Origin: a bacterium
GTDB lineage: Bacteria > UBA8248
Length of the DNA: 64,000 bases
NCBI GenBank assembly: GCA_022828125.1
Contig: JAJEJD010000019.1
Span: forward strand, 78,875 to 142,874
Reading direction: 5' to 3'
This document shows, piece by piece, positions 26,338-47,466 of the stretch. Positions within the stretch are counted from its first letter, which is position 1; each line of letters starts with the position of its first letter. The translations under genes and the position numbers were made by a program. A model generated the notes under the pieces. The model ran no database searches. It was given only the letters and a program-made list of their open reading frames with translations, and had not been told where the DNA came from.

Positions 26338-27504
26338 TTATTTCCGTTTTGCCGATACTTCGGTGAGTCTTCGCCGCTCCTTCCCCGATGGCCTGAGCAG
26401 CCTGCCCCCCAGAACCACGTGCGTCGCCTCGAGCATCCGCCTCCCCGTGCGCCGCGCTCCCATGGCGTCCTCGAAAACGAACCGGCCCTCCTTCACCCGG
26501 AACACGGCGACGTCGCCCCTGGCTTCCTTTCTGAGCGTCCCCACTTTGCCCTTGAGGCCGATCCACTCGGCCGCCGTCTGCGTGCTGAGCCGCACCACTT
26601 CGGCGAGAGGGAGTCCTAAGGCCAGAAACTTGCTCATGAGACTGGGAAAATCATACACAGGCCCGTGGATGCAGTGCGTATGGAGATCGGTGCTCAGGTT
26701 CCCCGGCATCAGACCCTGCGCCATGGCGCGCTCCATGATCTCGAAGCTGAAACTCGATCGTCCGTGCGCCACGTCGAGCAGCACGCCCGAATCCCGCGCC
26801 TCCCACACGGCGCGGCGCACCCGGCCGCTCCTATCGAGTATGTTCTCCCGCCTGCCGTGAAAGGCGTGCGTGAGCACGTCGCCGGGGCGCAGCCGCTTCA
26901 GAATGCTCGGCAAAGAAGAAGGCGTGTCGCCCACGTGCACCATGAGGGGGACTTTCAGACACTCCGCCGCTTCGAGGGCCGCATCTAGAGGCTTCGAGCC
27001 GCTTCGCTCCACCACGTTATCGCTCAAGCGCACCTTCATGCCGATCAAGTATTTCCGGTGAGCCTGATAGCAATCCACCGCCCTGTCGGCGCGCAGCGCG
27101 CGCATGTCGATGTTCTCGCCGAGGCCGTCTATCAACAACCCGCCTTCTGAGATGTTGAGATACGCGCGCACCGTCGGGCGCGCCTTCTCCAGGAACCATT
27201 CCTGGAAACCGGGATACGTCTGCGCGCCGGCGCTGCCCGTATCCACCGCCGTCGTCACGCCGCGCGAGAGCATGGCGGCCTCTAAATTCACGCCGTAGTG
27301 CGTAAAGCCCTCATAAAAATGGCAGTGGAGGTCGACCAGGCCGGGCGTGACGATTTTCCCCCGCGCGTTTAGTGTCTGTCTGCCTTTCGGCTCGATGTGG
27401 GGAGCCACCCTTCTGACGCGGCCGCGCGCGATCTCGACGTCCATCGTCCCCTCCAGGTTCTGTGATGGATCGATCACGTATCCGCCGCGTATGACGAGGT
27501 CCAT
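26338..27504 (-). CDS. Amidohydrolase-family metallohydrolase (dihydroorotase/deacetylase-like)
   Basis: Start at MDLVIRGGYVID. DLHCHF metal-binding motif. Confidence 0.65.
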   Translation of the reverse strand: MDLVIRGGYVIDPSQNLEGTMDVEIARGRVRRVAPHIEPKGRQTLNARGKIVTPGLVDLHCHFYEGFTHYGVNLEAAMLSRGVTTAVDTGSAGAQTYPGFQEWFLEKARPTVRAYLNISEGGLLIDGLGENIDMRALRADRAVDCYQAHRKYLIGMKVRLSDNVVERSGSKPLDAALEAAECLKVPLMVHVGDTPSSLPSILKRLRPGDVLTHAFHGRRENILDRSGRVRRAVWEARDSGVLLDVAHGRSSFSFEIMERAMAQGLMPGNLSTDLHTHCIHGPVYDFPSLMSKFLALGLPLAEVVRLSTQTAAEWIGLKGKVGTLRKEARGDVAVFRVKEGRFVFEDAMGARRTGRRMLEATHVVLGGRLLRPSGKERRRLTEVSAKRK

Positions 27505-27661
27505 GCGCAAGGCTCCTTTCATGCAACAAATGCGCAAACCGAGAACTTCGGCGAACGCCTAAGCGAACGAAATTGGTTCCGGGGCATTATTCCCCCGGCA
27601 GCGTTGAGGCGCAATCGCTGCGAAGAGGGATGAAACGCCTCCCGTGTAAATCAACGCAAAA

Positions 27662-27719: not shown

Positions 27720-27899
27720 ATGGGTCGGAACGTCGCGAAAGATCTGGAAGATGTCGCGAACCACGAGGAAACCGGAGAGTTCGAAGACGCCGTCGACGCC
27801 GAAATGGCCGAGAAGATACTGAGAGACATTGAAGAAGGGCGTGAGCAACTCGTATCGGGACAAGAATTAACCGAGACCCTTGATCGCATCACCAAGTAG
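27720..27899 (+). CDS. relB: Small antitoxin (59 aa) paired with RelE/ParE toxin
   Basis: MGRNVAKDLEDVANHEETGEFEDAVDAEMAEKILRDIEEGREQLVSGQELTETLDRITK. Strong RBS. Stop overlaps toxin GTG start by 1 nt. Not in ORF track (under 60 aa). Confidence 0.5.
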   Translation: MGRNVAKDLEDVANHEETGEFEDAVDAEMAEKILRDIEEGREQLVSGQELTETLDRITK

Positions 27900-28159
27900 T
27901 GAATCCGTCCGAAATTCGGTATACGGACAGGGCGATACATGCCCTCGAAAAACTCCCGACCAAAAAGCTGAAACGACAGATAAGGAACAGGATTGACAGA
28001 TTGGCGGCTAGCGAGACGCATGGAGGAACGAGAGTCCGCGGGATTTCGAGCGATGTATACAGGATACGCTCGGGCGATTACCGGATTTTATATGCTCTTG
28101 AGGGCGGCTCCAGAATCACGATTCTCGACATCGGGCACCGAAAAGACATCTACCGTTAG
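27899..28159 (+). CDS. relE: RelE/ParE-family type II toxin
   Basis: 86 aa. YRIRSGDYRILYALEGGSRITILDIGHRKDIY is the family hallmark. Confidence 0.8.
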   Translation: MNPSEIRYTDRAIHALEKLPTKKLKRQIRNRIDRLAASETHGGTRVRGISSDVYRIRSGDYRILYALEGGSRITILDIGHRKDIYR

Positions 28160-28281
28160 CACAGATATTTAATGGAATTGTTTCAATATTACCTCACAAC
28201 TTATTGATTGGACAATTTTACAAGGTTTTATCAACTTGCCTATCGCATTCCCACCGAAAATCAAACCGCTGGAGCCATGAA

Positions 28282-29454
28282 ATGAGTCTGCAAACGGAAA
28301 CCACGCTTCAATTCGACCTCGACGAAACCCAGAAGATGCTCCGCCAGACGGTGCGCGAACTCTCGGAGCGCTATATCTCCCCGCGGGCCGCCGACATCGA
28401 CGAGAACGAGGAATACCCCGAGGACATCTACCAGCTCCAGAAAGAACACGGCCTGCTCGGCATCTTCTTCCCGGAGGAATACGGGGGCGGCGGAATGGGC
28501 TTTCTGGGCGGCTGCGTCGCCATCGAGGAGATCGCGCGCGTCTGCTCGAATTCGCCGCTGTTCATCGTGCTCAACATGCTCTCGAGCCGCGTCATCGACT
28601 TGAGCGGCACGCAGGAGCAGAAAGACCACTACATGACGGGCCTCGCGAAAGGCGAACTCAGAGGCTCCTACGCCCTCACAGAACCCCACGCGGGCTCCGA
28701 CGCCGGCAACATCCGCACCCGCGCCGTCAAGGAGGGCGACGAGTGGGTCATCAACGGCACGAAGTGCTTCTGCACGGGGCCGGACAAGGCGGACTTCATC
28801 ACCGTGGCCGCCAAGACCGACCCCCACGCGGGCACGCGCGGCATCACCTACTACATCGTGCCCACCGACGCGCCGGGCTTCAGCATCGCCAAGCACGAGC
28901 GCAAGATGGGAATGCGCGGCATCGCCACCTGCATGCTCAATCTCGACAACGTGGCCGTCCCGCTCGAGAACCAGGTGGGCGAGCTGAACGCGGGCTTCAA
29001 GACCGCGATGATCGGCTTCAACCAGATGCGGCCCGCCATCGGCTCGCGCGCGGTGGGTCTCGCCCAGGGCTGTCTCGACTACGCGGCGAACTACGCCAAG
29101 GAGCGCGAGGCGTTCGGCAAGCCCATCGCCCAGCACCAGGCCGTGCAGTTCATGCTGGCGGACATGTTCATGGACATCGAGGCGGCGCGCCTGCTCGTCT
29201 ACCGCGCGGCCGCGATGGTGGACGCCGGCCGGATCGGCAAGGAGAACGCCAGGTATTTCTCGACGGCCAAGACCTACGCGGCCGACATGGCGATGAAGTG
29301 CGCGATAGACAGCATCCAGGTCTTGGGCGGCGCCGGCTACATGAAGGACCACCCGCTGGAGCGGTTCATGCGCGACGCCAAGCAAATCCAGATCGTCGAG
29401 GGAACGAGCCAGATACAGCGGATGATCATCGCCCGGAACCTGCTCGACCTCTAG
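28282..29454 (+). CDS. Acyl-CoA dehydrogenase family protein (paralog 1)
   Basis: ACAD motifs YALTEPHAGSD, QIHGGAGY-like VLGGAGYM, C-terminal IYEGTSQIQR-like IVEGTSQIQRMII. Confidence 0.9.
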   Translation: MSLQTETTLQFDLDETQKMLRQTVRELSERYISPRAADIDENEEYPEDIYQLQKEHGLLGIFFPEEYGGGGMGFLGGCVAIEEIARVCSNSPLFIVLNMLSSRVIDLSGTQEQKDHYMTGLAKGELRGSYALTEPHAGSDAGNIRTRAVKEGDEWVINGTKCFCTGPDKADFITVAAKTDPHAGTRGITYYIVPTDAPGFSIAKHERKMGMRGIATCMLNLDNVAVPLENQVGELNAGFKTAMIGFNQMRPAIGSRAVGLAQGCLDYAANYAKEREAFGKPIAQHQAVQFMLADMFMDIEAARLLVYRAAAMVDAGRIGKENARYFSTAKTYAADMAMKCAIDSIQVLGGAGYMKDHPLERFMRDAKQIQIVEGTSQIQRMIIARNLLDL

Positions 29455-29467
29455 GAGTGGACCTGGG

Positions 29468-30634
29468 GTGACGGGAAAGGTGGATGCCAGGGGCGCGTTC
29501 GAACTTGACGAATCCCAGCGGATGCTGGCCGATACGGTGTATGAACTGAGCCGACGCCACGTCGCGCCGCGCGCCGCTGCGATCGACGAGAACGACGAAT
29601 ACCCCGAAGATATATTTCAGCTCTTGAAATCCCACGGCCTCCTCGGCCTCTACGTTCCCGAAGCCTACGGTGGCGCAGGACTCGGGATACTCGAAACCTG
29701 CGTCGCCATCGAGCAGATGGCGCGGTTTTGCTCGAACTCCCCTCTTTTCTTCTCCGTTCACCTGCTCGCCACGCGGCCCGTCGCCATCGGGGGGAGCGAG
29801 GAGCAGAAAAAAACCTATCTCACCGGCGTCGCGCGGGGCGAATTGCGGCCCGCCTTCTCGCTCACCGAGCCGCACGCGGGTTCTGACGCGGCGAACATAT
29901 CGACGCGGGCGGTCCGCGACGGCGATTCGTGGGTCATCAACGGCCAGAAATGCTACTGCACGGGCTCGAGCGTCGCGGATTTCATCACCGTGGCGGCGAA
30001 AACAGAACCAGATAAAGGGGCGAAGGGCATATCGTTCTTCATCGTTCCCAGGGGCGCATTCCGCGTGGGCCGCCATGAGCGGAAAATGGGGATGCGGGGG
30101 ATACCGACCTGTGAAGTCTTTCTCGAAAATGCGCGAGTCCCCCTGGAGAACATGATCGGCGAGCAAGGCCTCGGCTTCAAGACGGCCATGCTCGGCTTCA
30201 ACCAGGCGCGGCCCGCCATCGGCGCACGGGGGGTGGGTCTGGCGCAGGGGTGTCTCGATTACGCATCTGCATACGCCAGGGAGCGCGAGGCGTTCGGCAA
30301 GCCTATCGCGCAGCACCAGGCCGTGCAGTTCATGCTCGCCGACATGTTCATGGAAACCGAGGCCGCCCGTCTGCTCGTTTACCGCGCCGCCTCGATGGTG
30401 GATAATGGCGATTACCGGAAAGAACACGTGCATTTCATCTGCGCCGCGAAATGCTACGCCACCGACACCGCCATGAAGGCCGCCGTGGACGGCGTTCAGG
30501 TGCTCGGCGGCGCGGGCTACATGATGGACCATCCGCTAGAGCGGTTCATGAGGGACGCGAAGCAGTTGCAGATCATCGAGGGAACCAACCAGATACAGCG
30601 CATGGTCATCGCCCAGAATTTATTAAGTTTATAG
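29468..30634 (+). CDS. Acyl-CoA dehydrogenase family protein (paralog 2, tandem)
   Basis: Over 60% identical by eye to the upstream ACAD across the full length. Confidence 0.9.
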   Translation: MTGKVDARGAFELDESQRMLADTVYELSRRHVAPRAAAIDENDEYPEDIFQLLKSHGLLGLYVPEAYGGAGLGILETCVAIEQMARFCSNSPLFFSVHLLATRPVAIGGSEEQKKTYLTGVARGELRPAFSLTEPHAGSDAANISTRAVRDGDSWVINGQKCYCTGSSVADFITVAAKTEPDKGAKGISFFIVPRGAFRVGRHERKMGMRGIPTCEVFLENARVPLENMIGEQGLGFKTAMLGFNQARPAIGARGVGLAQGCLDYASAYAREREAFGKPIAQHQAVQFMLADMFMETEAARLLVYRAASMVDNGDYRKEHVHFICAAKCYATDTAMKAAVDGVQVLGGAGYMMDHPLERFMRDAKQLQIIEGTNQIQRMVIAQNLLSL

Positions 30635-30662: not shown

Positions 30663-31271
30663 ATGAGCCAGACGATTGAAATCTTACAACCCACCTCTTT
30701 CGTCCGCGCGGGCGACCACCCCCTGGCGGAGCGGCCCGAAGACCTGGGCGGTCTCAAAATCGGCTTTTTCCACAACAACAAGCCCAACGCCGACGTCCTT
30801 CTCGAACGGATCGAGGAGTTGTTCGCCCAGGAGGACGAGACGCTGCGCTTCATCCGCTGGGGAAAACCGAATCCCACCCTCCCCGAGGATCGCCTCGAAG
30901 AATTCCTCGAACAGGTCGACGTGGCCGTCTGCGCGGTGGGCGACTGAGGGAGCTGCACGTCATGGAGTATCTATGACTCGGTGGAGATGGAAAAAGCGGG
31001 CGTTCCGACGGCCACGTTCTGCTCGAGCGAATTCTCGGCCTTGGGCGCGAACGAGAGAACTGCTTTGGGCATGCCCGGCCTTCCCATAGTCGTCGTGGCG
31101 CATCCGGTGGGCGGCATCGCGCCCGAACAAGCGCGCGCCCTGGGCGACGGCGCGGTGGAGGAGGTGCGGCGCATCCTCACGAGCGATGCCGAATCGCTCA
31201 GACGAGAATACCGGGAGCGCGAATACGTCCCGCCCCGAAAGACCCTGCGCCACAAGGCGCTCTTCGCATAG
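30663..31271 (+). CDS. UGSC-motif selenoprotein (202 codons, in-frame UGA at 30945-30947 read as selenocysteine)
   Basis: The two ORF-track fragments 30663-30947 and 30981-31271 are in the same frame. Reading through TGA gives ...AVCAVGD-U-GSCTSWS..., a UxxC redox motif. Candidate SECIS hairpin GTCAT-GGAGTATCT-ATGAC begins 11 nt after the UGA. Confidence 0.7.
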
Positions 31272-31283
31272 GCGGGCTTCGAT

Positions 31284-32360
31284 GTGAACGACCATTCTGA
31301 GGACAATCTCGTGTTTGAGAGCGAGCGCGTGAAGGTGCGCGACACGCCCGAGGCGATGGCGCGCCTGCTCGAAGCGAGAGGCTGGGGCGACGGCCTGCCC
31401 GTCGTTCCCCCCACGCCCGAGCGCGTCGCCCGGATGGTGGAGGGCTCAGGGCTCACGCCCGATGCGGAAATCGGCCTCATGCCCCCACGCCAGGGAGTCA
31501 TCTCCACCGAGGCCCTCGCCGTGAACGCCGTGATGGCCGGCTGTCATCCGTCGTACATGCCCGTTCTGGTGGCCGCGGTCCGGGCGGTGCTCGAACCCGA
31601 ATTCTCGCTCCACGCCATTCAGGCGACGACCCATCCGGTGGCGCCCCTCATCATCGTGAACGGTCCCATCGTCGAGGAAATCGGTTTGAACGCGGAGTAT
31701 GGGTGTTTCGCCCCCGGCAACCGGGCGAACGCGACGATTGGACGCGCGATGCGCCTGACGCTCCTGAACATAGGCGGCGCGAGCCCGGGCGTTCTGGACC
31801 GCGCCACGCAAGGCTCGCCCGCGAAATACGCGTTCTGCATCGCCGAGAACGAGTCGGCCTCCCCCTGGGAGCCGCTGCACGTCGAGCGCGGTTTTGCGGC
31901 CGATGAGAGCGCCGTGACGCTCGTGGGCTGCGAGGGACCCCACAACATCAACGATCACGTGAGCCACACGGCGGAGGGCATCCTCGCCACCGCCGCGGAT
32001 ACCATGTCCATCATGGGGAGCAATAATTTCTATCTGCGCGGAGAACCCGTTCTCGCCTTGGGCCCCGAGCACGCGGCGACCATCGCGGGAGACGGCCTCA
32101 CGAAAGCGGACGTGAAGGGGAGGATTTTCGAACTCGCCCGAAAGCCCGTGCGCCTGTTAAAGCGCGGCGCCATGTGGGGGATGCAGACCTGGGGCGAGGA
32201 AATAGCCGAACACGAAGACGACGATGATTTCGAGATCCCGCTTCTCGACGAACCGGAAGATTTGCTACTCATCGTTACGGGCGGCGCCGGCAAGCATTCG
32301 TGCTATATGCCCACCTTCGGCCCCACGCGCTCCGTGACTCGGAAGATCGATACTGGTTGA
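31284..32360 (+). CDS. Hypothetical protein (358 aa), operonic partner of the UGSC selenoprotein
   Basis: 12-nt spacing from the upstream gene. No family recognised by eye. Conserved-looking Cys-containing patch GGAGKHSCYMPTFG. Confidence 0.5.
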   Translation: MNDHSEDNLVFESERVKVRDTPEAMARLLEARGWGDGLPVVPPTPERVARMVEGSGLTPDAEIGLMPPRQGVISTEALAVNAVMAGCHPSYMPVLVAAVRAVLEPEFSLHAIQATTHPVAPLIIVNGPIVEEIGLNAEYGCFAPGNRANATIGRAMRLTLLNIGGASPGVLDRATQGSPAKYAFCIAENESASPWEPLHVERGFAADESAVTLVGCEGPHNINDHVSHTAEGILATAADTMSIMGSNNFYLRGEPVLALGPEHAATIAGDGLTKADVKGRIFELARKPVRLLKRGAMWGMQTWGEEIAEHEDDDDFEIPLLDEPEDLLLIVTGGAGKHSCYMPTFGPTRSVTRKIDTG

Positions 32361-33410: not shown

Positions 33411-33803
33411 ATGGCGAAACAACAAATCAACTCCGATAAGGTGAAACCGGTCGCCGCGTATTCCACGGGCTGGAAGGTATCGAACGGACATCTCATCATG
33501 CTGGCGGGCCAGGTGGCGGTTGACGTAGATGGGAACACCGTCGGGGGCGAGGATATCAGAGGCCAGACCCGGCAGGTATACGAGAACATCAAGGCCGCGC
33601 TCGAGGCGGCGGGCGCCGGGATGGCGGACATTATCCGCCTGACCGTCTATATCACCGACTCTGCGAATGTCCCGGGGTGCATGGAAGTACGGCAGACATA
33701 CTTCAGCGAGCCGTACCCGGCGAGCACGCTCCTGATCGTGAGCGGCCTGGCGAAACCCGAGTGGCTCATCGAGATAGACGCGATCGCCTTCGTGGAAGAC
33801 TAG
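33411..33803 (+). CDS. ridA: RidA/YjgF-family reactive-intermediate deaminase
   Basis: Start at MAKQQINSDKVKP. AAYSTGWKVSNG...LTVYITD pattern. Confidence 0.85.
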   Translation: MAKQQINSDKVKPVAAYSTGWKVSNGHLIMLAGQVAVDVDGNTVGGEDIRGQTRQVYENIKAALEAAGAGMADIIRLTVYITDSANVPGCMEVRQTYFSEPYPASTLLIVSGLAKPEWLIEIDAIAFVED

Positions 33804-33807: not shown

Positions 33808-34662
33808 ATGAGCAGCCGCAGGTCCATCGCCGAGACGCTTGTGCTCGTCAAGGGAGGCGGCGACCTCGCCACCGGCGTGTCGCATCGCCTGCACCGCGCG
33901 GGTTTTCCGGTCGCGATCACCGAAATCGAAAACCCCACGATGGTGAGGCGCACCGTTTCCTTCGCCGAGTGTCTGTATGCCGATGGGTGGAGAGTGGAGG
34001 GCGTTACCTCCGTCCGGGCGGACGGCGAAACCCTTGCGGAAAAAGCGCAGAAGGCGCGCGCCATCCTGGAGGCGAGTTCGATTCCGGTAATGGTGGACCC
34101 GCAAGCCGAGGTGATCGATCACCTCCGGCCCGCCGTCGTGGTCGACGCGATTCTCGCGAAGCGAAACCTCGGCACGCGCATGGACGACGCGGAGGTCGTC
34201 GTCGGCCTCGGGCCGGGCTTCACGGCGGGCGTCGATTGCCACGCCGTCATCGAGACCTCGCGGGGACACGACCTGGGAAGGGTTATTCTTGAGGGCGCAG
34301 CAAAACCCAATACCGGCGTTCCGGGCCCCATCGGCGGCTACACCACCGAGCGGCTGCTGCGGGCGCCCCAAGCCGGCGTCTTCACCTCCATCGCCGGGAT
34401 AGGCGACGCGGTGAGGGCGGGAGAGGCCGTCGCCCGCGTGGACGACGCCGAAGTGACCTCCGCCATCGACGGCGTTTTGCGGGGGCTGTTGAGAAACGGC
34501 ATCGAGGTACCTGCCGGCTTCAAGGTGGGCGACGTCGACCCGAGGGCCGAGCCCGCCCATTGCCATACGATATCGGATAAATCGCGCGCCATCGGAGGCG
34601 GCGCGCTCGAGGCCATCATGATGTTTCTGTTCGGCGTTTCAGCCATGGAGTATGCGAATTGA
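33808..34662 (+). CDS. Conserved protein, possibly YqeB-family selenium-dependent molybdenum-hydroxylase accessory protein (tentative)
   Basis: 284 aa, N-terminal Gly-rich VKGGGDLATG. Assignment rests on gene context (adjacent MoxR/VWA/YqeC-like/XdhC) and an imperfect recollection of the family; needs an HMM check. Confidence 0.35.
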   Translation: MSSRRSIAETLVLVKGGGDLATGVSHRLHRAGFPVAITEIENPTMVRRTVSFAECLYADGWRVEGVTSVRADGETLAEKAQKARAILEASSIPVMVDPQAEVIDHLRPAVVVDAILAKRNLGTRMDDAEVVVGLGPGFTAGVDCHAVIETSRGHDLGRVILEGAAKPNTGVPGPIGGYTTERLLRAPQAGVFTSIAGIGDAVRAGEAVARVDDAEVTSAIDGVLRGLLRNGIEVPAGFKVGDVDPRAEPAHCHTISDKSRAIGGGALEAIMMFLFGVSAMEYAN

Positions 34663-35543
34663 CTACCGAAATCTTGACCGAAACGGTGAAAAACGGAACC
34701 TACCGGATCGGGCGCAGCGAAATCCCCATCAACGAGACGAACGGCAACTCCTTCGTTCCCCCGGAGCAATTCTATCTGGCGGCGGGTGACGCGCTCGAGC
34801 GAATCGCTTGGGCGGTGAGCAGGAACCTGCCCGTCCTCCTCGTGGGGGAGACCGGCGTCGGCAAGACCCTCTCGGTGCGCCACCTCGCCCACATGACGAA
34901 CAACGGCTTCCGGCGCGTGAACCTGAACGGCATGACCACGGTCGACGAGTTCGTGGGCAAACTGATGATCAACGAACAGGGCACCTACTGGGTGAACGGC
35001 ATCCTGGTCGACGCCATGCAATCGGGCGACTGGCTGCTCATCGACGAGATCAACGCGTGCCTGCCCGAAATCGCCTTTTGCCTGCACAGCCTGCTCGACG
35101 ACGACCGCATGATCGTCTTGTCGGAATACGACGGCCGCATCGTCAAGCCGCATCCGAATTTCAGGCTTTTCGCCAGCATGAACCCGCACGAGGACCGCAG
35201 GTACGGCGGCACCAAGCCCCTGAACGAGGCGCTTCTGGACCGCTTCCCGGTCACCGTGAAGATGGACTACCTGCCCTTCGACGCGGAAGTCGAGGTCATC
35301 ATGCAGCAGAGCGGGAACAACGATGAGGAACTCATCAAGCGCATGGTGCGCGTGGGCCACGACGTGCGCGAGGCCATGCAGAACGAGAAGGTGTTCTGCA
35401 CGTTCAGCACCCGGCGCCTCATCGACTGGGCGCGCATGGCGGCGCAGTTCGACCCCATGGATGCCGCCGTCTCGACCATCTTCAGCAAGGTCAACTCTTT
35501 CGACGCCAAAGTGCTCGAGGACATCGTAGACAACCACTTCTAG
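34659..35543 (+). CDS. MoxR/CbbQ/NorQ/CoxD-like AAA+ ATPase (AAA_5)
   Basis: Walker A LLVGETGVGKT, Walker B LLIDEINA, arginine finger region. TTG start overlapping the upstream stop. Confidence 0.85.
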   Translation: MTTEILTETVKNGTYRIGRSEIPINETNGNSFVPPEQFYLAAGDALERIAWAVSRNLPVLLVGETGVGKTLSVRHLAHMTNNGFRRVNLNGMTTVDEFVGKLMINEQGTYWVNGILVDAMQSGDWLLIDEINACLPEIAFCLHSLLDDDRMIVLSEYDGRIVKPHPNFRLFASMNPHEDRRYGGTKPLNEALLDRFPVTVKMDYLPFDAEVEVIMQQSGNNDEELIKRMVRVGHDVREAMQNEKVFCTFSTRRLIDWARMAAQFDPMDAAVSTIFSKVNSFDAKVLEDIVDNHF

Positions 35544-35557
35544 CCGGGAGATGAGGC

Positions 35558-37330
35558 ATGGAACGCCGACGCGCCCGTCTCGAAGCGCTCGCGCAGGTAA
35601 CCGCGCACGATTACGACCTCGCCCTGAACTTCGGTCCCAAGGCGAAGAACGGCGAAGACGCCATCCACGTCGAAGACCCCGAGCAGACCCTGGCGCGCCT
35701 GGGCGGCGGACTCAACGACGAGCACGTCTTGAGATTCCAGAAGGGCATGACGCTCATCGAGGTGGCCCACAAAATCCACGGTACGTTCCGCTGGGCGGGG
35801 CGCGCCGCGCTCGCGAACCGCGAGAGGCCGGGTCTTTTCCACATCTGGCACACGCTCGAGGACGCGCGGTGCGAAAACCGCCTCGCGGAATCGCTGCCCG
35901 GCACCAAGAAGAATTTCCGCGCCTTCATTCTCCCGGCCATCGAGGCGGCCGAACGCAACCAGATGAGCGGGCAACTCCCCTTGTTTCTCCAGATCCAGTG
36001 GGGGCTCTACCTCGCCGGGATCGGGCAGACACCCGGCGTCCCCTCCTCTCGGCCCGGAGACTTGCCGGCGGCCTGGTTCGATACCGCCGTCGTCCAGATT
36101 TTTCACAGGCTCATCCCTCTGGTAGACCGCGCCTGCGCCGCCGATGACCCCAAAACCGCCTTCGATTGCGCGAACGAGATATATGACGCCATCCAGCGCT
36201 ATCTCACCGAAGATCAACTCTCCCGGATGAGCGAGGATCAGGATTTATCGGAGATTCCCGAAGAAATTCTGCAGAAAATCGAGAGCCAGAACCTGGAGGG
36301 CGACGACGACGAAGCGCTCGAGATGCTCCACCCCGAGGCGGCGGAGGAAATCGACGAGGAAGACGTAGGCGAGCAGGTCGAACTCAGCCCCGAGGAACTC
36401 GCAGCGCTCGGGCACTGGGCCGCCCCCTGGTTCGAACTCGAAGGGAACAAGAAGGAAATCCACCCCACCGCCGAGCACCCCGACGAGCGAACCATCGTGT
36501 TGCCGCCCGAGGGCAAGGCCGAAGAATACGCGGCGGTCATCGACAACGCGGGCAGCCACATCAAAGTGCTGGTGTGGAAACTCATGCAGATCATCCAGGA
36601 GAGAACCTACACACGCTACAGCGGCTCGCACCGCTCGGGCAAGCTGAACCTCCCGAAGCTGTGGAAGCAGCGGCTGGGGAAATTCCATCTCTTCCACCGA
36701 AAAGAAGAGCCCGACAAGCTCGACGTGTGCTTCACGCTGCTCGTGGACGAGAGCGGCAGCATGAACCGCGAGTCGAAATACATGGCCGCCAGGGAGGCGA
36801 CCATATTCTTCGCCGAAGCGCTCGACCGCCTCGATGTGCCCTTCGAGGTCATCGGCTATTCCACCGAGAGTTCCGAAGCCGCCATGGCGGCGGCCCTGGG
36901 CCACATCCCCGCGTTCAAGTTCCGCCACATCCGGCACTCGCCGCTCCAGCACCGCATCTACAAGGGTTTCGAGGATCATTTCGCCCAGGTGAAGAACAGG
37001 CTCGTCAACATCTACCCGCGCTTCAACAACTGGGACGAGGAGCACCTGCTCTTCGCCTACCGCAGGCTCATCCAGCGACCCGAGGAGGAGAAAATCATCA
37101 TCATCACCTCGGACGGCCAGCCCAACGGGGACGCGACCCACCTCGTGAACACGGTGAACCGGCTCCAGAAGCTCGGGGTGCGCGTCATCGGCGTCGGCGT
37201 GGTGGACCCATTCGTCGAGCAGATCTACCCCAACCACATCGTGGTGCAGGACCTCACCCAGCTATCCACCGAACTCGTGAACATCCTGAGGCGCGAACTG
37301 CTCGGCGGCGTGGAGAGCCGCACTTGGTAG
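35558..37330 (+). CDS. von Willebrand factor A domain protein (CoxE/CbbO/NorD/CobT-like partner of the AAA+ ATPase)
   Basis: 590 aa. Acidic linker DDDEALEMLHPEAAEEIDEED. C-terminal VWA with MIDAS DESGSM...S...T and IIIITSDGQPN. Confidence 0.8.
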   Translation: MERRRARLEALAQVTAHDYDLALNFGPKAKNGEDAIHVEDPEQTLARLGGGLNDEHVLRFQKGMTLIEVAHKIHGTFRWAGRAALANRERPGLFHIWHTLEDARCENRLAESLPGTKKNFRAFILPAIEAAERNQMSGQLPLFLQIQWGLYLAGIGQTPGVPSSRPGDLPAAWFDTAVVQIFHRLIPLVDRACAADDPKTAFDCANEIYDAIQRYLTEDQLSRMSEDQDLSEIPEEILQKIESQNLEGDDDEALEMLHPEAAEEIDEEDVGEQVELSPEELAALGHWAAPWFELEGNKKEIHPTAEHPDERTIVLPPEGKAEEYAAVIDNAGSHIKVLVWKLMQIIQERTYTRYSGSHRSGKLNLPKLWKQRLGKFHLFHRKEEPDKLDVCFTLLVDESGSMNRESKYMAAREATIFFAEALDRLDVPFEVIGYSTESSEAAMAAALGHIPAFKFRHIRHSPLQHRIYKGFEDHFAQVKNRLVNIYPRFNNWDEEHLLFAYRRLIQRPEEEKIIIITSDGQPNGDATHLVNTVNRLQKLGVRVIGVGVVDPFVEQIYPNHIVVQDLTQLSTELVNILRRELLGGVESRTW

Positions 37331-38151
37331 TGGAAGAAGACGTCGTTCGCTCCCTCGGGGTCGGGCCTGGCCAGAGCATCGCGGCGGTCGGCGGAGGCGG
37401 AAAAACGAGCCTGCTGACCGCCATCGCCAGAGAGTTTCATGCGCAAAGCGGAAAGCCTGCGATTCTCACGACGACAACGAAAATTTTCGCGCCGCTGCCC
37501 GAAGAAAAAACCCAACTCGCCCTGGGTGACGCCGCGACGCTCGCCAAGAACCTCCGCCCCTACATGGACGCTTGCGGCGTCTCATGGTTCGCACGCTGCC
37601 GCGAGGGGAAAGCCCCGGTTCCAGGCAGCGAGAGCGAGCAGCGAATGAAGCTGGGCGGCTTCGCGCCTCGAGAAATCGCCCGCCTGAAGCTCGCCGACGC
37701 CCTCACACTCATCGAGGCGGACGGCGCGAGAAGACTGCCCATCAAGGCCCCGGGGCCCGATGAACCCGTATTGCCGGAAAATCTCGACGCCGTGCTGGGC
37801 GTCGTGGGGCTGGACGCAATAGGCGCGCCATTGAGCGAAACGCATGTTTTTCGTCCCGAGGCGCTTTCGCACATTTGCAGCCTGCAGATCGGCGGGGAGA
37901 TAACGGCCGAGGCCATAGGAAAGCTGTGCGCACATCCCGATGGTCTTTTTCACAAGGCCGAAGAAGGCGCGCGCAAATGGATCGTCATCAACAAGGCGGA
38001 TATGGAAACCTCGCTGGAAAAACTTGAAAAAACGGCCTATACTATATGGGAGTTGGCCGGAAAGCCTCATGGTCCGGCGGACGGCATCCTCTTCACGTCT
38101 TGTATGAACAACGAATGTAAAGTATTCATACGGCTTGCGTCGGATGCGTAA
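37330..38151 (+). CDS. P-loop protein, YqeC-like (putative selenium-dependent hydroxylase accessory protein)
   Basis: GTG start overlapping the VWA stop by 1 nt. Walker A AAVGGGGKTSLL. About 274 aa. The first 750 nt of the long ORF in the track (36574-38151) is out-of-gene. Confidence 0.5.
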   Translation: MEEDVVRSLGVGPGQSIAAVGGGGKTSLLTAIAREFHAQSGKPAILTTTTKIFAPLPEEKTQLALGDAATLAKNLRPYMDACGVSWFARCREGKAPVPGSESEQRMKLGGFAPREIARLKLADALTLIEADGARRLPIKAPGPDEPVLPENLDAVLGVVGLDAIGAPLSETHVFRPEALSHICSLQIGGEITAEAIGKLCAHPDGLFHKAEEGARKWIVINKADMETSLEKLEKTAYTIWELAGKPHGPADGILFTSCMNNECKVFIRLASDA

Positions 38152-38182
38152 CGACTGAAACTCCATGTAAACGGAGCAAGGA

Positions 38183-39328
38183 ATGAGCAAAGACGTATTC
38201 AAGGAAATGGCAAGGCTCAAGGAAGACGGCCAGAGCGGTGCGCTCGCCACGGTCGTAGCTCGCAAGGGATCCGCGCCCATGAGCGGCGACGCGAAGATGC
38301 TAGTGCGCGAGGACGGCAGCACGGAGGGAACCGTCGGGGGCGGCTGCCTCGAAGCCGAGGTGTGGGAAACCGCCATGAGCGTCCTGGAGACAGGCGAACC
38401 CGAAAAACTCCGGTTCGACCTCACCCAGCAGGAAGCCGAAGACAGCGGCCACATCTGCGGCGGCGTGGTGGAAATACTCGTGGAACCCTTCCAGGCGTTT
38501 CAGGAAGAGTTGCTCGGCGAGATCAACCGCATCAGAAACCAGGGCGGCAGCGCGGCGCTGGCGACCATCGTTCAACCGGGCGAACTCGAAGTCCCGTCGA
38601 CTGAGGCCAGAAAGATGCTCTTCCGGCGCGACGGCAGCGCCGTGGGCGAGATTCCCGACTATTCAACGGAAATCTGGGCGGAGAGCACGCAAATCATCCG
38701 AAACGGCAGCCCCACACTCCTGCAGTTCAACAGGGACGCCGCGCGCGCGGGAGAAAAGAGGTCCACCCTCACGGACGCAACCGAAATTTTCGTCGAACCC
38801 ATATCCGGCCAGCCGCTCGTCTATATTTTCGGCGGCGGGCACGTGTCGTTCTGCGTCGCGCAGGCGGCCTATCTTGCCGGTTTCCGCGTTTCGATCGTCG
38901 AGGACAGGCCCTCGTTCGCCAACAAGGAGCGCTTCCCGATGGCGGAATCGTTCCATGTCGGCGAGTTCCCCGAAATTTTCGAGAAAATCCCGGTCGATGA
39001 GTCCGACTACCTGGCCATCATCACCAGAGGCCATTCGAACGACGAGGTCGTCCTCGAATGGGCCATGAAGTCGGACGCGCGCTACATCGGGATGATCGGC
39101 TCCAAAAGCAAGGTGCTGCTCACCTATCGCCACCTCCAGGACAAGGGCTACGACAGGAGCGAACTCATCGATCGCGTCCATGCCCCCATTGGTTTGGACA
39201 TCGGCGCGGATACGCCGGGAGAGATCGGGGTCGCCATCGTCGCCGAACTCATCCGCCACCGCCGCCGGGGCGAGGCGGAGAGCGAGGGCGCAGGCAGCAA
39301 AAGGGTGCAACTCAAAAGAAAATCCTAA
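38183..39328 (+). CDS. xdhC: XdhC/CoxF-family molybdenum-hydroxylase maturation factor
   Basis: N-terminal XdhC_CoxI ATVVARKGSAPMSGDAKMLVREDGSTEGTVGGGCLE and C-terminal Rossmann IFGGGHVS. Confidence 0.85.
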   Translation: MSKDVFKEMARLKEDGQSGALATVVARKGSAPMSGDAKMLVREDGSTEGTVGGGCLEAEVWETAMSVLETGEPEKLRFDLTQQEAEDSGHICGGVVEILVEPFQAFQEELLGEINRIRNQGGSAALATIVQPGELEVPSTEARKMLFRRDGSAVGEIPDYSTEIWAESTQIIRNGSPTLLQFNRDAARAGEKRSTLTDATEIFVEPISGQPLVYIFGGGHVSFCVAQAAYLAGFRVSIVEDRPSFANKERFPMAESFHVGEFPEIFEKIPVDESDYLAIITRGHSNDEVVLEWAMKSDARYIGMIGSKSKVLLTYRHLQDKGYDRSELIDRVHAPIGLDIGADTPGEIGVAIVAELIRHRRRGEAESEGAGSKRVQLKRKS

Positions 39329-39409
39329 AATTTATCGCCGCAACCGGCCCGTACGAGGGGGCCGCATTCTTTCATACCCGGGACCCGAAGCGAGTGTATT
39401 CCAGGGCTC

Positions 39410-45461: not shown

Positions 45462-46316
45462 TTAATACTCATCCGTCCAGCTTCTGCGGCGCTTCTCGCC
45501 GGCGTCACACGGCGGGACCGCCCTCGACACCAGGACAGGGCCTTCCTCCGTGATTCCCGGATCATGCGCCTGTTGCCGCCTCTCCCTCCCCGGCAGGCCG
45601 ACAATCTCCAGAATCAGTTTCCTCCTGATGGCGCGACCGAAAGACTTGAAGTCATTCGCGACCACCAGGAAAGAGCGCCGGCCCCCGATGACGCATTTCC
45701 TGTAATACAGATCCAGGTTCGGCATCGGCATTCTGCCCCAGGGACTCGGCCGGTTATTCACGATGGGAAGCCCGTTTATCGTCACGCCGGCCCGTACGGC
45801 CCTGTCCCGGGCATTCGTCACGTAGTCCCCGCTGTTGTTCGGCCCGTCGCCGGAAATGTCGATGGTGCGGCGCTCGCTCGAGAACCCGTTGTTCTCGAAC
45901 AGCGGCAGCGCGAACTCTATCGCGCCGCTTATCGACGTGTAGGGACCCACCCCCACCGGCGCCTGGGAGAGCAGGTAAGCGAACTCCTCGGCGCTCGCGC
46001 CGTCGTGAATCCGCTTCCAGCCCACGACGATCCTCTGAAAATCGAAGCCCGCCCACTCCATGTAGGTGACCGCAATGCTTTTGTGTCTTCCCGATTGGAT
46101 GGCGCGCAAGACAGACGGCGAGCGAAAGGCGTTCACGTACCCCATCCGCTGGAGTTTCCCCTCCTCCTCATCCACGCTCCCTGAGACATCGACCGCCAGG
46201 ACGAGTTCCAGATCCACGCTGACGGGAGCGGGCCACGCGAAACCCGCATGCAGGGAGAGCGCGAAAATGGTCAGGAAACCCGCCAGGCCGCACCGCACTC
46301 TCGAATAGCGCATCAT
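45462..46316 (-). CDS. DUF1194-family (VWA-like) secreted protein
   Basis: Start at MMRYSRV with signal peptide. LVLAVDVSGSVDEEE...ISGDGPNNSG...GVTINGLPI. 4-nt overlap with the TPR gene. Confidence 0.6.
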   Translation of the reverse strand: MMRYSRVRCGLAGFLTIFALSLHAGFAWPAPVSVDLELVLAVDVSGSVDEEEGKLQRMGYVNAFRSPSVLRAIQSGRHKSIAVTYMEWAGFDFQRIVVGWKRIHDGASAEEFAYLLSQAPVGVGPYTSISGAIEFALPLFENNGFSSERRTIDISGDGPNNSGDYVTNARDRAVRAGVTINGLPIVNNRPSPWGRMPMPNLDLYYRKCVIGGRRSFLVVANDFKSFGRAIRRKLILEIVGLPGRERRQQAHDPGITEEGPVLVSRAVPPCDAGEKRRRSWTDEY

Positions 46317-47329
46317 TTCTCTTTCAACACGCCGGCCGCGGATTCCAGTTCCAGGCGAATCTGCTCCATCAGGGAGGAATACATGTGTTTTTCGGTGAGC
46401 AATTCCCTGGTTTCCTCCTCCACGTCTTCCTGCTTCCCCAAGGCGTAATCGCAGCGAATCACGCGCCATTTGGAAAATTCGCGGTACAGGCCCGAAATCC
46501 CGTCTTTCGACTCTTTCAGCCGGGACAGCAGTTTCGCATATTCCGTCCGCGCGCGCGGGTAATCCTCGGCGATGAAAAAACTCTCCGCGTATGCAACGTC
46601 GTACAAGGCGTTCTTGGGATAGCGCGCGCGCAGGTACTCGACGTCCCCTCTCGCCTCCTTGAATTTCTTTGCCCTGTAGAGCGCCCAGATGAGGTCCAGC
46701 CGCGCCGTAATGGATATCCAGCCGCCTCCATCGACCGCGCGGCGCAGATAGGCTCTGCCCTTAGCGCTCGTATCGCCGACGAAAAACCGGAACATCCTCA
46801 CCCAGCTCTCGGTGCTGCCCCTGATGTGATAAATCCCCAGCCCGTAGTAGGCGTCGTGAATTTCCGGGTCGAGTTCGAGCGCCTTTTCGAGATGGTTCTG
46901 CATCGCGCCGGCCCGCAGGAACGCCGTGAGATAGCTGCTGCTGTCGAGCGCATCGACGATGCGCATGCCCTCCGTCAGACCGGCGAGGAGGAGCGCTCTC
47001 GTGTCTTCGGGGTTTTTCTCCAGCAATGCCTCGGAGAGGGCCATCGCCTTCTCGGCGTTCTTCCGCCAGGTCTCCTGATAATCCTCCCGCCGGATATGCC
47101 CTTTCAGGATGTGGAAAACGGACGCCTTGAAGAAATATCCCTCGGGACGCCCGGGCGCGGACGCTATCACCCGGTCGAACGAATGAGACGCCGCTGAATA
47201 ATCGCCCGCGGCGACCCGTTCGAGCCCTGCGTCAATCGATTTCACGTCCAAAGACGCGCCATGAGCGAGGTTCGCCGAAGCCGGGAAAACGACGATAAAA
47301 ATGAGTATTCTCGCGAAATGGGACGCCAT
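46313..47329 (-). CDS. Secreted TPR-repeat protein
   Basis: Signal peptide. Several TPR-like helix pairs. Confidence 0.6.
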   Translation of the reverse strand: MASHFARILIFIVVFPASANLAHGASLDVKSIDAGLERVAAGDYSAASHSFDRVIASAPGRPEGYFFKASVFHILKGHIRREDYQETWRKNAEKAMALSEALLEKNPEDTRALLLAGLTEGMRIVDALDSSSYLTAFLRAGAMQNHLEKALELDPEIHDAYYGLGIYHIRGSTESWVRMFRFFVGDTSAKGRAYLRRAVDGGGWISITARLDLIWALYRAKKFKEARGDVEYLRARYPKNALYDVAYAESFFIAEDYPRARTEYAKLLSRLKESKDGISGLYREFSKWRVIRCDYALGKQEDVEEETRELLTEKHMYSSLMEQIRLELESAAGVLKEK

Positions 47330-47466
47330 TGCTCCTCCGGTCATCAACGCGCGGGCAACCGGCCCTGAAACGGGCGGGCATCTGCGCGAACGACGGTTTG
47401 CCCGCGCTCGTGATTGGGCATATCGTAGTATCGGGGTACGGGTATTTCAACCATAGCGAGCCGGCC

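What the first reader, a model, noticed from the sequence alone, without database searches (positions are those of the whole stretch)
33808..39328. CoxD/CoxE/CoxF-like metallocentre maturation cluster (MoxR AAA+, VWA, YqeC-like P-loop, XdhC, possible YqeB) without a structural molybdenum hydroxylase
MoxR-like AAA+ ATPase, a 590-aa VWA/CobT-like protein and an XdhC protein mirror the coxD-coxE-coxF module that inserts the Mo/Cu centre of CO dehydrogenase. Between them sits a P-loop protein (GGGGKTS) resembling YqeC, and a Gly-rich 284-aa protein precedes the set. YqeB/YqeC families mark selenium-dependent molybdenum hydroxylases, and the UGSC selenoprotein 3 kb upstream shows that this organism uses selenium. 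No xdhABC/coxMSL structural genes are in the window, so the client enzyme is elsewhere or unknown. An alternative reading is a MoxR-VWA NTP-dependent conflict system, as described for diversifying ternary systems.
Basis: partly seen in the sequence, partly recalled or inferred. Interest (0 to 1): 0.7.

Follow-up and report, generated by a model that had tools for sequence, protein, structure and literature searches.

The report
Selenium-molybdenum enzyme maturation operon with motor
This is a five-gene operon for finishing the active site of a selenium-dependent molybdenum enzyme, and it unusually has an ATP-driven motor-and-adaptor pair built into it; the same pair sits next to molybdenum enzyme genes in another phylum, which gives a testable lead on how the labile selenium (or sulfur) gets into these enzymes.

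Summary
The + strand carries yqeB (TIGR03309, 363 bits, cut-off 220), an AAA+ ATPase (AAA_5 + CbbQ_C), a 590-aa CobT_C/VWA protein, yqeC (TIGR03172, 163 bits, cut-off 73) and xdhC. The genes are tightly packed. No xanthine-oxidase-family structural gene lies in the window or in the 10 kb upstream of it.

The five-gene order is kept in 31 of 31 untruncated Nitrospinota/Tectomicrobia species genomes. A second Nitrospinota group has yqeB-AAA-VWA, in some loci 3-6 kb from FAD, Mo and FeS subunit genes. In Chloroflexota the orthologous AAA-VWA pair follows a four-subunit hydroxylase operon. Its split Mo subunit is closest to Eubacterium barkeri nicotinate dehydrogenase, which as I recall is the structurally characterised Mo=Se enzyme.

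The pair is not an orthologue of CoxD/CoxE. It belongs to the CobS/CobT-CbbQ/NorQ branch, so it parallels coxDEF rather than descending from it.

Best reading: this is a maturation operon for a selenium-dependent molybdenum hydroxylase, and the AAA+/VWA motor-adaptor remodels the apoenzyme. The client enzyme of this lineage was not found. A defence-system reading is not supported.

Verdict: a new variant of a known kind, of moderate interest.

The parts
33411..33803 (+). RidA/YjgF-family protein. It ends 4 nt before yqeB. It is a frequent but not universal upstream neighbour of the cluster, so membership is uncertain.
   Evidence: PF01042 96.6 bits. Gene aa. Found by tblastn just upstream of yqeB in most, but not all, group A loci.
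33808..34662 (+). YqeB (EF2563 family), marker and accessory protein of selenium-dependent molybdenum hydroxylases. It has an N-terminal Rossmann-like G.GD.A.G motif and an invariant HC.TISDK motif near the C-terminus.
   Evidence: TIGR03309 363.4 bits against a cut-off of 220, covering 255 of 256 model positions. 95 of 284 residues are at least 97% invariant in 48 sequences. NCBI names close relatives 'EF2563 family selenium-dependent molybdenum hydroxylase system protein'.
34659..35543 (+). AAA+ ATPase of the CobS/CbbQ/NorQ/midasin (AAA_5) type, the motor. Walker A is GETGVGKT, Walker B is LLIDEINA, and the MNP and STRR motifs are present. The TTG start overlaps the yqeB stop.
   Evidence: PF07728 101.5 bits and PF08406 CbbQ_C 39.2 bits. 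PDB matches: CobS 100.8, CbbQ 84.7, NorQ 84.3 bits. 121 of 294 residues are at least 97% invariant in 93 sequences. About 65% identical between Nitrospinota and Chloroflexota.
35558..37330 (+). CobT-like VWA adaptor protein. It has an N-terminal helical domain (1-245) with a degenerate HExxH-like motif, a disordered acidic linker (245-296) and a C-terminal VWA domain with an intact MIDAS (D397-x-S399-x-S401, T436, D519).
   Evidence: PF11775 67.7 bits. PDB CobT about 50 bits. AF2 model pLDDT 77.7. Foldseek top matches are the MDN1 MIDAS domain and NorD VWA in NorQD complexes. Invariant residues.
37330..38151 (+). YqeC, a P-loop NTPase (GGGGKT, EADG, NKAD) and second marker of the selenium-cofactor trait. 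Its start overlaps the end of the VWA gene; the alternative called start is 37324.
   Evidence: TIGR03172 163.1 bits against a cut-off of 73; PF19842 124.3 bits. Invariant motifs. Gene call.
38183..39328 (+). XdhC-family molybdenum-cofactor chaperone (N-terminal XdhC_CoxI domain plus a Rossmann domain).
   Evidence: PF02625 94.4 bits and PF13478 128.2 bits. NF045664 XdhC_rel_AOR 312.7 bits, just under its cut-off of 350. 27% identical to CoxF over 281 aa, E 3e-20.
39345..39364 (+). G+C-rich hairpin 17 nt after the xdhC stop. It is a possible weak terminator marking the operon end.
   Evidence: Consensus scan only: 6 G-C pairs and a poor T-run. This is not evidence of function.
30663..31274 (+). 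UGSC-family selenoprotein with an in-frame TGA at 30945-30947. It is context, not part of the operon: it shows that the lineage decodes selenocysteine and therefore makes selenophosphate.
   Evidence: Translation. PF24696 159.9 bits and NF041046 136.5 bits. TGA conserved in 21 of 21 related loci.

Best explanation
The five genes form one operon that matures the active site of a xanthine-oxidase-family molybdenum hydroxylase carrying a labile selenium ligand. That enzyme is encoded elsewhere in the genome.

Proposed steps:
1. XdhC binds and holds the molybdenum cofactor.
2. YqeB, with the P-loop (probably GTP-specific) NTPase YqeC, delivers selenium derived from selenophosphate to the Mo centre.
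3. The AAA+ ATPase forms a hexameric ring. One copy of the CobT-like VWA protein plugs into the ring through its VWA/MIDAS domain.
4. The adaptor's N-terminal helical domain docks on the apo-hydroxylase, or on the XdhC/YqeB-cofactor complex.
5. ATP hydrolysis then opens the folded apoenzyme so that the cofactor or its labile Se ligand can be installed. CoxD is proposed to do this for sulfuration of CO dehydrogenase, NorQD for FeB insertion and CobST for cobalt chelation.

Shown: gene identities, operon packing, conservation of the order, and linkage of the AAA-VWA subfamily to Mo-hydroxylase genes in three lineages.

Inferred: physical complexes, the order of steps, selenium rather than sulfur as the ligand, and the identity of the client.
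For: - YqeB, YqeC and XdhC pass or nearly pass curated models.
- The genes overlap or are at most 31 nt apart.
- The order yqeB-AAA-VWA-yqeC-xdhC is kept in 31 of 31 group A species loci with enough sequence. The other 7 are cut by contig ends. Conservation holds down to 52% VWA identity and recurs in JGI metagenome contigs.
- Group B (5 genomes plus 1 metagenome contig) keeps yqeB-AAA-VWA. Three of these six loci (L040, L044, L102) have XO-family subunit genes 3-6 kb downstream.
- In group C (Chloroflexota), all 21 loci with upstream sequence have FAD_binding_5 - Fer2_2 - MoCoBD_1 - MoCoBD_2 genes directly or within about 2.5 kb upstream of AAA-VWA. An xdhC gene often lies about 6 kb downstream.
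- The split Mo subunit of group C is closest in the PDB to E. barkeri nicotinate dehydrogenase NdhL (3hrd_A, 239.8 bits; next best 169.4).
- The AAA+ keeps its Walker A, Walker B and sensor motifs, and the VWA keeps a complete MIDAS.
- The VWA fold matches the AAA+-engaging MIDAS/NorD class.
- The lineage decodes Sec.
- Precedents: CoxD/E/F (PMC4240915), NorQD (PMC9976466), the CobSTN motor-adaptor-effector model (10.64898/2026.07.21.739949), and the yqeB requirement in C. difficile (PMC11448449).
Against: - No client hydroxylase was found in the window, in the 10 kb upstream of it, or within +-10 kb in any group A locus. The enzyme being matured is therefore unseen.
- Group C loci have no yqeB or yqeC within +-10 kb, so the AAA-VWA pair need not be tied to selenium.
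- YqeB/YqeC functions are still inferred from comparative genomics, and yqeC deletion had no phenotype in C. difficile (PMC11448449).
- More distant CobS/CobT-like pairs occur in unrelated contexts: Burkholderiales megaplasmids and mobile-element-like Eubacteriales loci.
- No protein-protein interaction was tested.
Confidence: 0.6

Rival explanations
1. The AAA+/VWA pair is a general chaperone for XO-family apoenzymes, acting in cofactor insertion or ordinary sulfuration, and has no specific role in selenium. In Nitrospinota it simply became clustered with other accessory genes (yqeB, yqeC, xdhC).
For: In Chloroflexota the pair follows the hydroxylase structural genes with xdhC nearby but no yqeB or yqeC within +-10 kb. 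CoxD acts in sulfuration of a non-selenium enzyme (PMC4240915). YqeB genes found in Chloroflexota MAGs stand alone in housekeeping contexts.
Against: In 31 of 31 group A and 6 of 6 group B loci the pair lies immediately downstream of yqeB with overlapping or near-overlapping reading frames. In group A it is sandwiched between yqeB and yqeC, which is tighter than loose clustering. The Chloroflexota client is most similar to nicotinate dehydrogenase, which as I recall carries a Mo=Se ligand. Whether group C genomes carry yqeB elsewhere could not be tested.
Confidence: 0.27
2. The pair is a CobS/CobT-type chelatase motor that inserts a metal into a tetrapyrrole or other cofactor together with a CobN-like subunit encoded elsewhere. 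Its position among Mo-enzyme accessory genes is coincidental.
For: The best curated and solved-structure matches are CobS and CobT. Sources annotate relatives as 'cobaltochelatase CobT-related'.
Against: Scores are far below the equivalog cut-offs: CobS 90 against 558, CobT 60 against 759. No CobN-like gene was seen among the scanned window ORFs or the conserved neighbours. Synteny with Mo-hydroxylase components recurs in three lineages.
Confidence: 0.04
3. The MoxR-VWA pair is the core of an NTP-dependent conflict or defence system.
For: MoxR-VWA pairs do occur in conflict systems (PMC7159879). Distant relatives of the VWA protein lie in mobile-element-like loci in Eubacteriales.
Against: PADLOC gives no meaningful hit; the best is 16 bits. 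The locus is vertically conserved with fixed housekeeping-type neighbours across a phylum and shows no composition anomaly. The partners are cofactor-maturation proteins, not effectors.
Confidence: 0.02

Closest known systems
Selenium-dependent molybdenum hydroxylase (SDMH) accessory gene set: YqeB (TIGR03309), YqeC (TIGR03172), often with XdhC domains (Haft & Self 2008, PMC2276186)
   Same: YqeB and YqeC pass the defining equivalog models. An XdhC-family gene is adjacent. The host uses selenium.
   Different: The published set (YqeB, YqeC, YgfJ, SsnA, TIGR03527, SelD) contains no AAA+ or VWA protein. Here a motor-adaptor pair sits between yqeB and yqeC. No hydroxylase or selD gene is nearby. 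The host is an aerobic-type marine or sponge-associated Nitrospinota lineage rather than Firmicutes or Enterobacterales.
CoxD-CoxE-CoxF of Oligotropha (Afipia) carboxidovorans CO dehydrogenase (PMC4240915, PMC3471820)
   Same: Both have an AAA+ ATPase, a VWA protein and an XdhC-family protein encoded together and devoted to post-translational maturation of a Mo-hydroxylase active site. The Chloroflexota relatives even share the layout of structural genes, then AAA, then VWA, with XdhC further downstream.
   Different: They are not orthologous. AAA against CoxD matches only around Walker A (29 bits). VWA against CoxE is not significant. CoxE is PF05762 (288 bits) whereas this VWA is PF11775 CobT_C. 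CoxD lacks the CbbQ_C domain. The cox system has no Cu/S chemistry implied here, and has no YqeB or YqeC.
CobS-CobT(-CobN) aerobic cobaltochelatase (preprint 10.64898/2026.07.21.739949)
   Same: These are the closest sequence relatives with solved structures for both proteins. The expected motor-adaptor architecture is the same, with a VWA element inserted into the AAA+ ring.
   Different: Scores are far below the CobS and CobT equivalog cut-offs. No CobN was found. The genomic partners are Mo-enzyme maturation factors or hydroxylase subunits.
NorQ-NorD and CbbQ-CbbO (PMC9976466)
   Same: The AAA+ is of AAA_5 + CbbQ_C type. The VWA fold is closest to NorD VWA and the midasin MIDAS domain. Their function is ATP-driven remodelling of an assembled enzyme to install or free a catalytic-site component.
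   Different: No NO reductase or RuBisCO context appears in any of about 150 related loci. The N-terminal target-binding domain is unrelated.
Eubacterium barkeri nicotinate dehydrogenase NdhFSLM (PDB 3hrd)
   Same: The hydroxylase encoded next to the orthologous AAA-VWA pair in Chloroflexota has the same four-subunit layout: FAD, 2x[2Fe-2S], and a split Mo subunit of 436 + 333 aa. NdhL is its best PDB match.
   Different: That enzyme is not in this window or lineage. The substrate is unknown, since the operon neighbours are sugar- and aldehyde-type enzymes. Selenium dependence has not been shown.

Membership tests
SDMH accessory system (Haft & Self) | YqeB: match to TIGR03309 above the trusted cut-off | tested here: met
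   363.4 bits against 220, full-length
SDMH accessory system (Haft & Self) | YqeC: match to TIGR03172 above the trusted cut-off | tested here: met
   163.1 bits against 73.05; PF19842 124.3 bits
SDMH accessory system (Haft & Self) | selD present in the genome | not testable with these tools
   There is no selD in the window. It is inferred from a conserved Sec (TGA) codon in the UGSC gene, seen in 21 of 21 loci. The rest of the genome could not be scanned.
SDMH accessory system (Haft & Self) | Location in or near an extended molybdenum hydroxylase locus | tested here: not met
   No XO-family gene lies in the 64-kb window, in the 10 kb upstream of it, or within +-10 kb in any group A locus. The feature is met in three group B relatives (L040, L044, L102).
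CoxD/CoxE/CoxF module | AAA+ orthologous to CoxD | tested here: not met
   BLASTP gives 29 bits over 44 aa around Walker A only. Both are AAA_5, but CoxD lacks CbbQ_C.
CoxD/CoxE/CoxF module | VWA protein of the CoxE type (PF05762) | tested here: not met
   PF05762 scores 18 bits against a cut-off of 26.4 here, but 287.9 bits for CoxE. BLASTP E = 0.25.
CoxD/CoxE/CoxF module | XdhC-family protein encoded with the pair | tested here: met
   XdhC_CoxI + XdhC_C domains; 27% identity to CoxF, E 3e-20
CobS/CobT cobaltochelatase | Scores above the TIGR01650 (CobS) and TIGR01651 (CobT) cut-offs | tested here: not met
   90.1 against 558.55 and 60.4 against 759.05
CobS/CobT cobaltochelatase | CobN partner or cobalamin gene context | tested here: not met
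   None among the scanned window ORFs or the conserved neighbours of about 150 related loci. This is not an exhaustive scan of every small ORF.
CbbQ/CbbO or NorQ/NorD | Neighbourhood with RuBisCO or cNOR genes | tested here: not met
   Neighbours are yqeB, yqeC and xdhC or XO-family subunits in all three lineages.
AAA+-engaging VWA/MIDAS adaptors (functional class) | Intact MIDAS motif and a fold of the midasin/NorD type, encoded next to an AAA_5 ATPase | tested here: met
   DxSxS, T and D are invariant. Foldseek top hits are 8ql1 and 9qhd/9qh6. Adjacency is seen in all loci.
MoxR-VWA conflict systems | Match to defence-system models, or a variable, island-like context with effector genes | tested here: not met
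   The best PADLOC hit is 16 bits. The context is conserved and syntenic.
XdhC family | XdhC_CoxI N-domain plus the XdhC Rossmann domain | tested here: met
   94.4 and 128.2 bits. The AOR-type equivalog NF045664 is just missed (312.7 against 350).

The most novel reading that the evidence does not exclude
A CobS/CobT-derived AAA+/VWA motor-adaptor is an integral, previously unrecognised component of the pathway that installs the labile selenium ligand of Mo=Se hydroxylases. It would have been recruited independently of CoxD/CoxE. It would also mark an uncharacterised selenium-dependent hydroxylase in aerobic-type marine and sponge-associated Nitrospinota, and a nicotinate-dehydrogenase-like enzyme in Anaerolineales.
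Probability: 0.35. Interest if true: 0.72.

Novelty: new variant of a known kind. Interest (0 to 1): 0.55.

Why it matters
How the labile selenium reaches the molybdenum centre of SDMHs has been open since the enzymes were described. YqeB and YqeC were proposed as markers in 2008. YqeB was shown to be needed only in 2024, and no mechanism is known.

A conserved operon that wires YqeB and YqeC to an ATP-driven motor-adaptor pair and to XdhC suggests that insertion needs energy-dependent remodelling of the apoenzyme. It also provides a compact five-gene set for co-expression experiments.

The finding adds a further case, alongside CoxDE, NorQD, CbbQO and CobST, of AAA+/VWA pairs recruited to catalytic-centre maturation. 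Here the recruitment is to Mo hydroxylases from a different branch than CoxDE. It also extends the selenium-cofactor trait to Nitrospinota.

Tried and rejected
1. Search for the client enzyme.
- Pfam scans of 30 large window ORFs found nothing.
- tblastn with six XO-family subunits against the window and all loci found no group A hit.
- The 10 kb upstream of the window on scaffold_149 has none.
- A homologue search with the group B large subunit returned a huge cross-phylum family. No hit lay on a contig matching any group A chromosome length.
- Two candidates turned out to belong to unrelated MAGs.

2. Whether group C Chloroflexota genomes carry yqeB. YqeB homologues exist in Anaerolineae and Chloroflexota MAGs, but in other assemblies and in housekeeping contexts. 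This is inconclusive.

3. Rfam (looking for, e.g., a Moco riboswitch) and tRNA scans of the window: nothing.

4. PADLOC for the defence reading: nothing meaningful.

5. The acyl-CoA dehydrogenases conserved upstream in group A, as a clue to the pathway. They are generic, with best matches to acryloyl-CoA reductase and cyclohexanecarbonyl-CoA dehydrogenase, all far below cut-off. They are absent from groups B and C, so I treat them as lineage-specific synteny.

6. My recollection that CoxD is an AAA_3-type protein was wrong. Pfam assigns it to AAA_5. The non-orthology claim rests on the direct BLASTP comparison and on the different VWA families.

7. Literature searches for any prior link between YqeB/YqeC or nicotinate dehydrogenase and MoxR/VWA proteins found none in the held library.

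Full report
**What is there**

Between 33808 and 39328 the + strand carries five tightly packed genes with the window's coding GC3 bias.

| Coordinates | Length | Assignment | Scores |
|---|---|---|---|
| 33808-34662 | 284 aa | YqeB | TIGR03309 363.4 bits (cut-off 220); no Pfam family |
| 34659-35543 | 294 aa | AAA+ ATPase | AAA_5 101.5 bits plus CbbQ_C 39.2 bits; nearest curated model CobS, 90 bits, far under its 558 cut-off |
| 35558-37330 | 590 aa | VWA protein | CobT_C 67.7 bits; TIGR01651 CobT 60 bits against 759 |
| 37330-38151 | 273 aa | YqeC | TIGR03172 163.1 bits (cut-off 73); PF19842 124.3 bits |
| 38183-39328 | 381 aa | XdhC | XdhC_CoxI 94.4 bits plus XdhC_C 128.2 bits; NF045664 312.7 bits against 350 |

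The yqeB stop overlaps the TTG start of the AAA gene. The end of the VWA gene overlaps the yqeC start. The remaining gaps are 14 and 31 nt. A RidA gene ends 4 nt before yqeB, and a comF/gntX-like gene follows xdhC.

**No structural hydroxylase**

Pfam scans of the other large ORFs show housekeeping genes: carAB, pyrB/C/R, mfd, surA-like genes, DAHP synthase, pdxA, quinone reductases and others. tblastn with six XO-family subunits finds nothing in the window. The window is part of a 142-kb metagenome scaffold (ENA ERZ23491425, KELL22-1 scaffold_149). The 10 kb upstream of the window also lacks such genes. No Rfam family or tRNA is present.

**Selenium use**

The UGSC gene at 30663-31274 has an in-frame TGA at 30945-30947. 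The TGA, followed by GSCTSW, is conserved in 21 of 21 related loci. The lineage therefore decodes selenocysteine. From established knowledge of the Sec pathway, it must then make selenophosphate.

**Neighbourhood conservation**

An alignment of the VWA protein and its relatives was used to scan one genome per GTDB species. That gave 129 relatives, of which the best 80 loci were kept. It was also used to scan JGI metagenomes, giving 69 loci. tblastn and ORF clustering resolve three lineages in which the AAA-VWA pair is orthologous (VWA 34-99% identical, AAA 60-98% identical).

- **Group A** is Nitrospinota, many of them sponge- or seawater-derived MAGs, plus Candidatus Tectomicrobia. There are 38 species loci. 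The order yqeB-AAA-VWA-yqeC-xdhC is present in all 31 loci with enough sequence. The other 7 are cut by contig ends and show the expected part. Fifteen metagenome contigs agree. An acyl-CoA dehydrogenase gene usually lies upstream. No XO-family gene lies within +-10 kb.
- **Group B** is a second Nitrospinota-type lineage, with 5 genomes and 1 metagenome contig. It has yqeB-AAA-VWA but no adjacent yqeC or xdhC. In L040 and L044 a FAD_binding_5 subunit, an 805-aa MoCoBD large subunit and a 2Fe-2S subunit lie 3-5 kb downstream. L102 has FeS and large-subunit genes about 6 kb downstream.
- **Group C** is Chloroflexota, mainly Anaerolineales, with 26 genomes and about 40 metagenome contigs. Every locus with upstream sequence (21 of 21 genomes) has the order FAD_binding_5 - Fer2_2 - MoCoBD_1 (436 aa) - MoCoBD_2 (333 aa) - AAA - VWA. 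An xdhC gene often lies about 6 kb downstream. No yqeB or yqeC lies within +-10 kb.

The split Mo subunit of group C has E. barkeri nicotinate dehydrogenase NdhL (3hrd_A) as its clear best PDB match, at 239.8 bits against 169.4 for the next. From my own knowledge, that enzyme is the structurally characterised Mo=Se hydroxylase and has the same F/S/L/M subunit layout. The group B large subunit is closest to 4-hydroxybenzoyl-CoA reductase alpha and CoxL.

More distant CobS/CobT-like pairs are not Mo-linked. These are at 35-38% AAA identity on Burkholderiales megaplasmids and 25-29% VWA identity in mobile-element-like Eubacteriales loci. The Mo association is thus a property of this subfamily.

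**What the AAA/VWA pair is**

Against solved structures the AAA+ matches the following:

| PDB match | Bits |
|---|---|
| Midasin AAA domains (six stretches summed) | 353 |
| CobS | 100.8 |
| CbbQ | 84.7 |
| NorQ | 84.3 |
| A MoxR-type protein (2r44) | 45 |

The VWA protein matches CobT. An AF2 model (pLDDT 77.7) shows three parts: an N-terminal helical domain (1-245), a disordered acidic linker (245-296) and a C-terminal VWA domain. The best structural neighbours of the VWA domain are the human MDN1 MIDAS domain and NorD VWA bound to the NorQ ring.

Walker A (GETGVGKT), Walker B (DEINA), MNP and STRR are invariant in 93 AAA sequences. The MIDAS residues D397, S399, S401, T436 and D519 are invariant in the VWA family.

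The N-terminal domain carries an HExxH-like motif followed by an invariant W..EDAR.E. The motif is intact in group B and some outliers. It is degenerate in group A (IEVAH) and in group C (HLLGH). This suggests a binding module rather than a catalytic one in those groups.

I fetched the cox cluster of pHCG3 and compared it directly.
- AAA against CoxD aligns only around Walker A (29 bits).
- VWA against CoxE is not significant. CoxE is PF05762 (288 bits), while the window protein scores 18 bits there, below the cut-off.
- XdhC against CoxF is clearly homologous (27% identity, E 3e-20).

So the module parallels coxD-coxE-coxF in composition and in position relative to hydroxylase genes, but its motor and adaptor come from the CobS/CobT-CbbQ/NorQ branch. 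This is an independent recruitment.

**How it most likely works**

This section is inference, by analogy with published systems. CoxD is required for ATP-dependent sulfuration of Mo inside folded apo-CO dehydrogenase, and CoxE/CoxF act later (PMC4240915). NorQ6-NorD inserts FeB into assembled cNOR, with the VWA 'finger' plugging the ring pore and the N-terminal domain binding the target (PMC9976466). CobS-CobT-CobN follows a motor-adaptor-effector layout (preprint 10.64898/2026.07.21.739949).

I propose the following:
- XdhC holds the cofactor.
- YqeB delivers selenium from selenophosphate. It has an invariant HC.TISDK motif and a Rossmann-like N-terminus.
- YqeC assists as an NTPase. It has an invariant P-loop, EADG and NKAD motifs, which suggests a GTPase.
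- The AAA+ ring, through the VWA adaptor, opens the apo-hydroxylase for insertion of the cofactor or its labile ligand.

YqeB is experimentally needed for selenium-dependent purine use in C. difficile, while the role of yqeC is unclear (PMC11448449). The published SDMH accessory list contains no AAA+ or VWA protein (PMC2276186, PMC5322559).

**Rivals**

1. The pair may be a general Mo-hydroxylase chaperone unrelated to selenium. The lack of nearby yqeB/yqeC in group C supports this. The strict yqeB-AAA adjacency in groups A and B, and the NDH-like client in group C, argue against it. It remains open, at about 0.27.
2. A true cobaltochelatase is disfavoured by the cut-offs, the missing CobN and the synteny.
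3. A defence system is disfavoured by PADLOC and by the conserved, vertically inherited context.

**Limits**

- The client enzyme of this lineage was not found.
- The complete chromosomes of near-identical genomes exist publicly but could not be scanned again.
- Whether group C genomes have yqeB, yqeC or selD is unknown. Chloroflexota YqeB homologues exist, but in other assemblies.
- No interaction or activity was tested.

**Verdict**

The yqeB, yqeC and xdhC genes are ordinary members of known families, and NCBI already names the yqeB product in related MAGs.

The new element is the conserved CobS/CobT-like motor-adaptor pair embedded in the selenium-cofactor operon, together with the Mo-hydroxylase-linked orthologues in two other lineages. 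I rate this a new variant of a known kind, with interest 0.55.

Noticed in passing
window 30663-32360 (+): The UGSC selenoprotein (Sec TGA at 30945-30947, conserved in 21 of 21 relatives) is followed at 31284-32360 by a 358-aa protein with no Pfam or NCBIfam match. That protein is co-conserved with UGSC in the related Nitrospinota loci, so it may be an uncharacterised partner of the UGSC family.
   Followed up: partly
window 35558-36300 (VWA protein residues 60-115): The N-terminal domain of the VWA protein has a zincin-like HExxH...W..EDAR.E motif. The motif is intact in group B and in some distant relatives. It has lost the first His in this lineage (IEVAH) and the Glu in Chloroflexota (HLLGH). 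It may be an inactivated metalloprotease-like target-binding domain.
   Followed up: partly
window 4000-8000: This stretch has low G+C (0.50-0.51, against about 0.62 elsewhere). It carries HEPN_RiboL-PSP, Mrr_cat, ORF6N and HTH genes and looks like an acquired defence islet between carB and transaldolase/gdh.
   Followed up: no
window ~27720-28159 (+): A small ORF plus a ParE-toxin-family gene, probably a toxin-antitoxin pair, lie just upstream of the two acyl-CoA dehydrogenase genes.
   Followed up: no
window 28204-30634 (+) and group A loci: One or two acyl-CoA dehydrogenase genes are conserved upstream of yqeB throughout group A, and directly adjacent in several genomes (80-98% identity). 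Their best models are acryloyl-CoA reductase and cyclohexanecarbonyl-CoA dehydrogenase, all far below cut-off. It is unclear whether this is a functional link to a CoA-ester-hydroxylating Mo enzyme or mere synteny.
   Followed up: partly
window 26338-27537 (-): An amidohydrolase passes NF006689 (393 bits against 371) and is related to TIGR03583 (EF_0837 family, 275 bits, below cut-off). Its function is unknown.
   Followed up: no
window 52078-53718 (-) and 53861-55588 (-): Two large ORFs (546 and 575 aa) have no Pfam match at E <= 1e-4. The first also fails the GC3 coding filter, so it may not be a real gene.
   Followed up: no
window 45462-47347 (-): A DUF1194 protein is followed by a TPR protein. 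The pair is conserved at the same relative position in related genomes.
   Followed up: no
L005 14804-18264 (+) and four other group A loci: In some close relatives, two STAND-type NTPase genes (AAA_16; AAA_16 + wHTH + TPR) are inserted after comF, where this window has pdxA. This is a strain-variable insertion.
   Followed up: no
L048 1-18700 (Chloroflexota, group C): The NDH-like hydroxylase and the AAA-VWA pair sit in a long co-directional operon. It also encodes KduI/IolB, a metallo-beta-lactamase-fold protein, zinc alcohol dehydrogenases, an aldehyde dehydrogenase-sized protein, a xylose-isomerase-like TIM barrel and a transketolase-like protein. The substrate is therefore probably not nicotinate.
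   Followed up: partly
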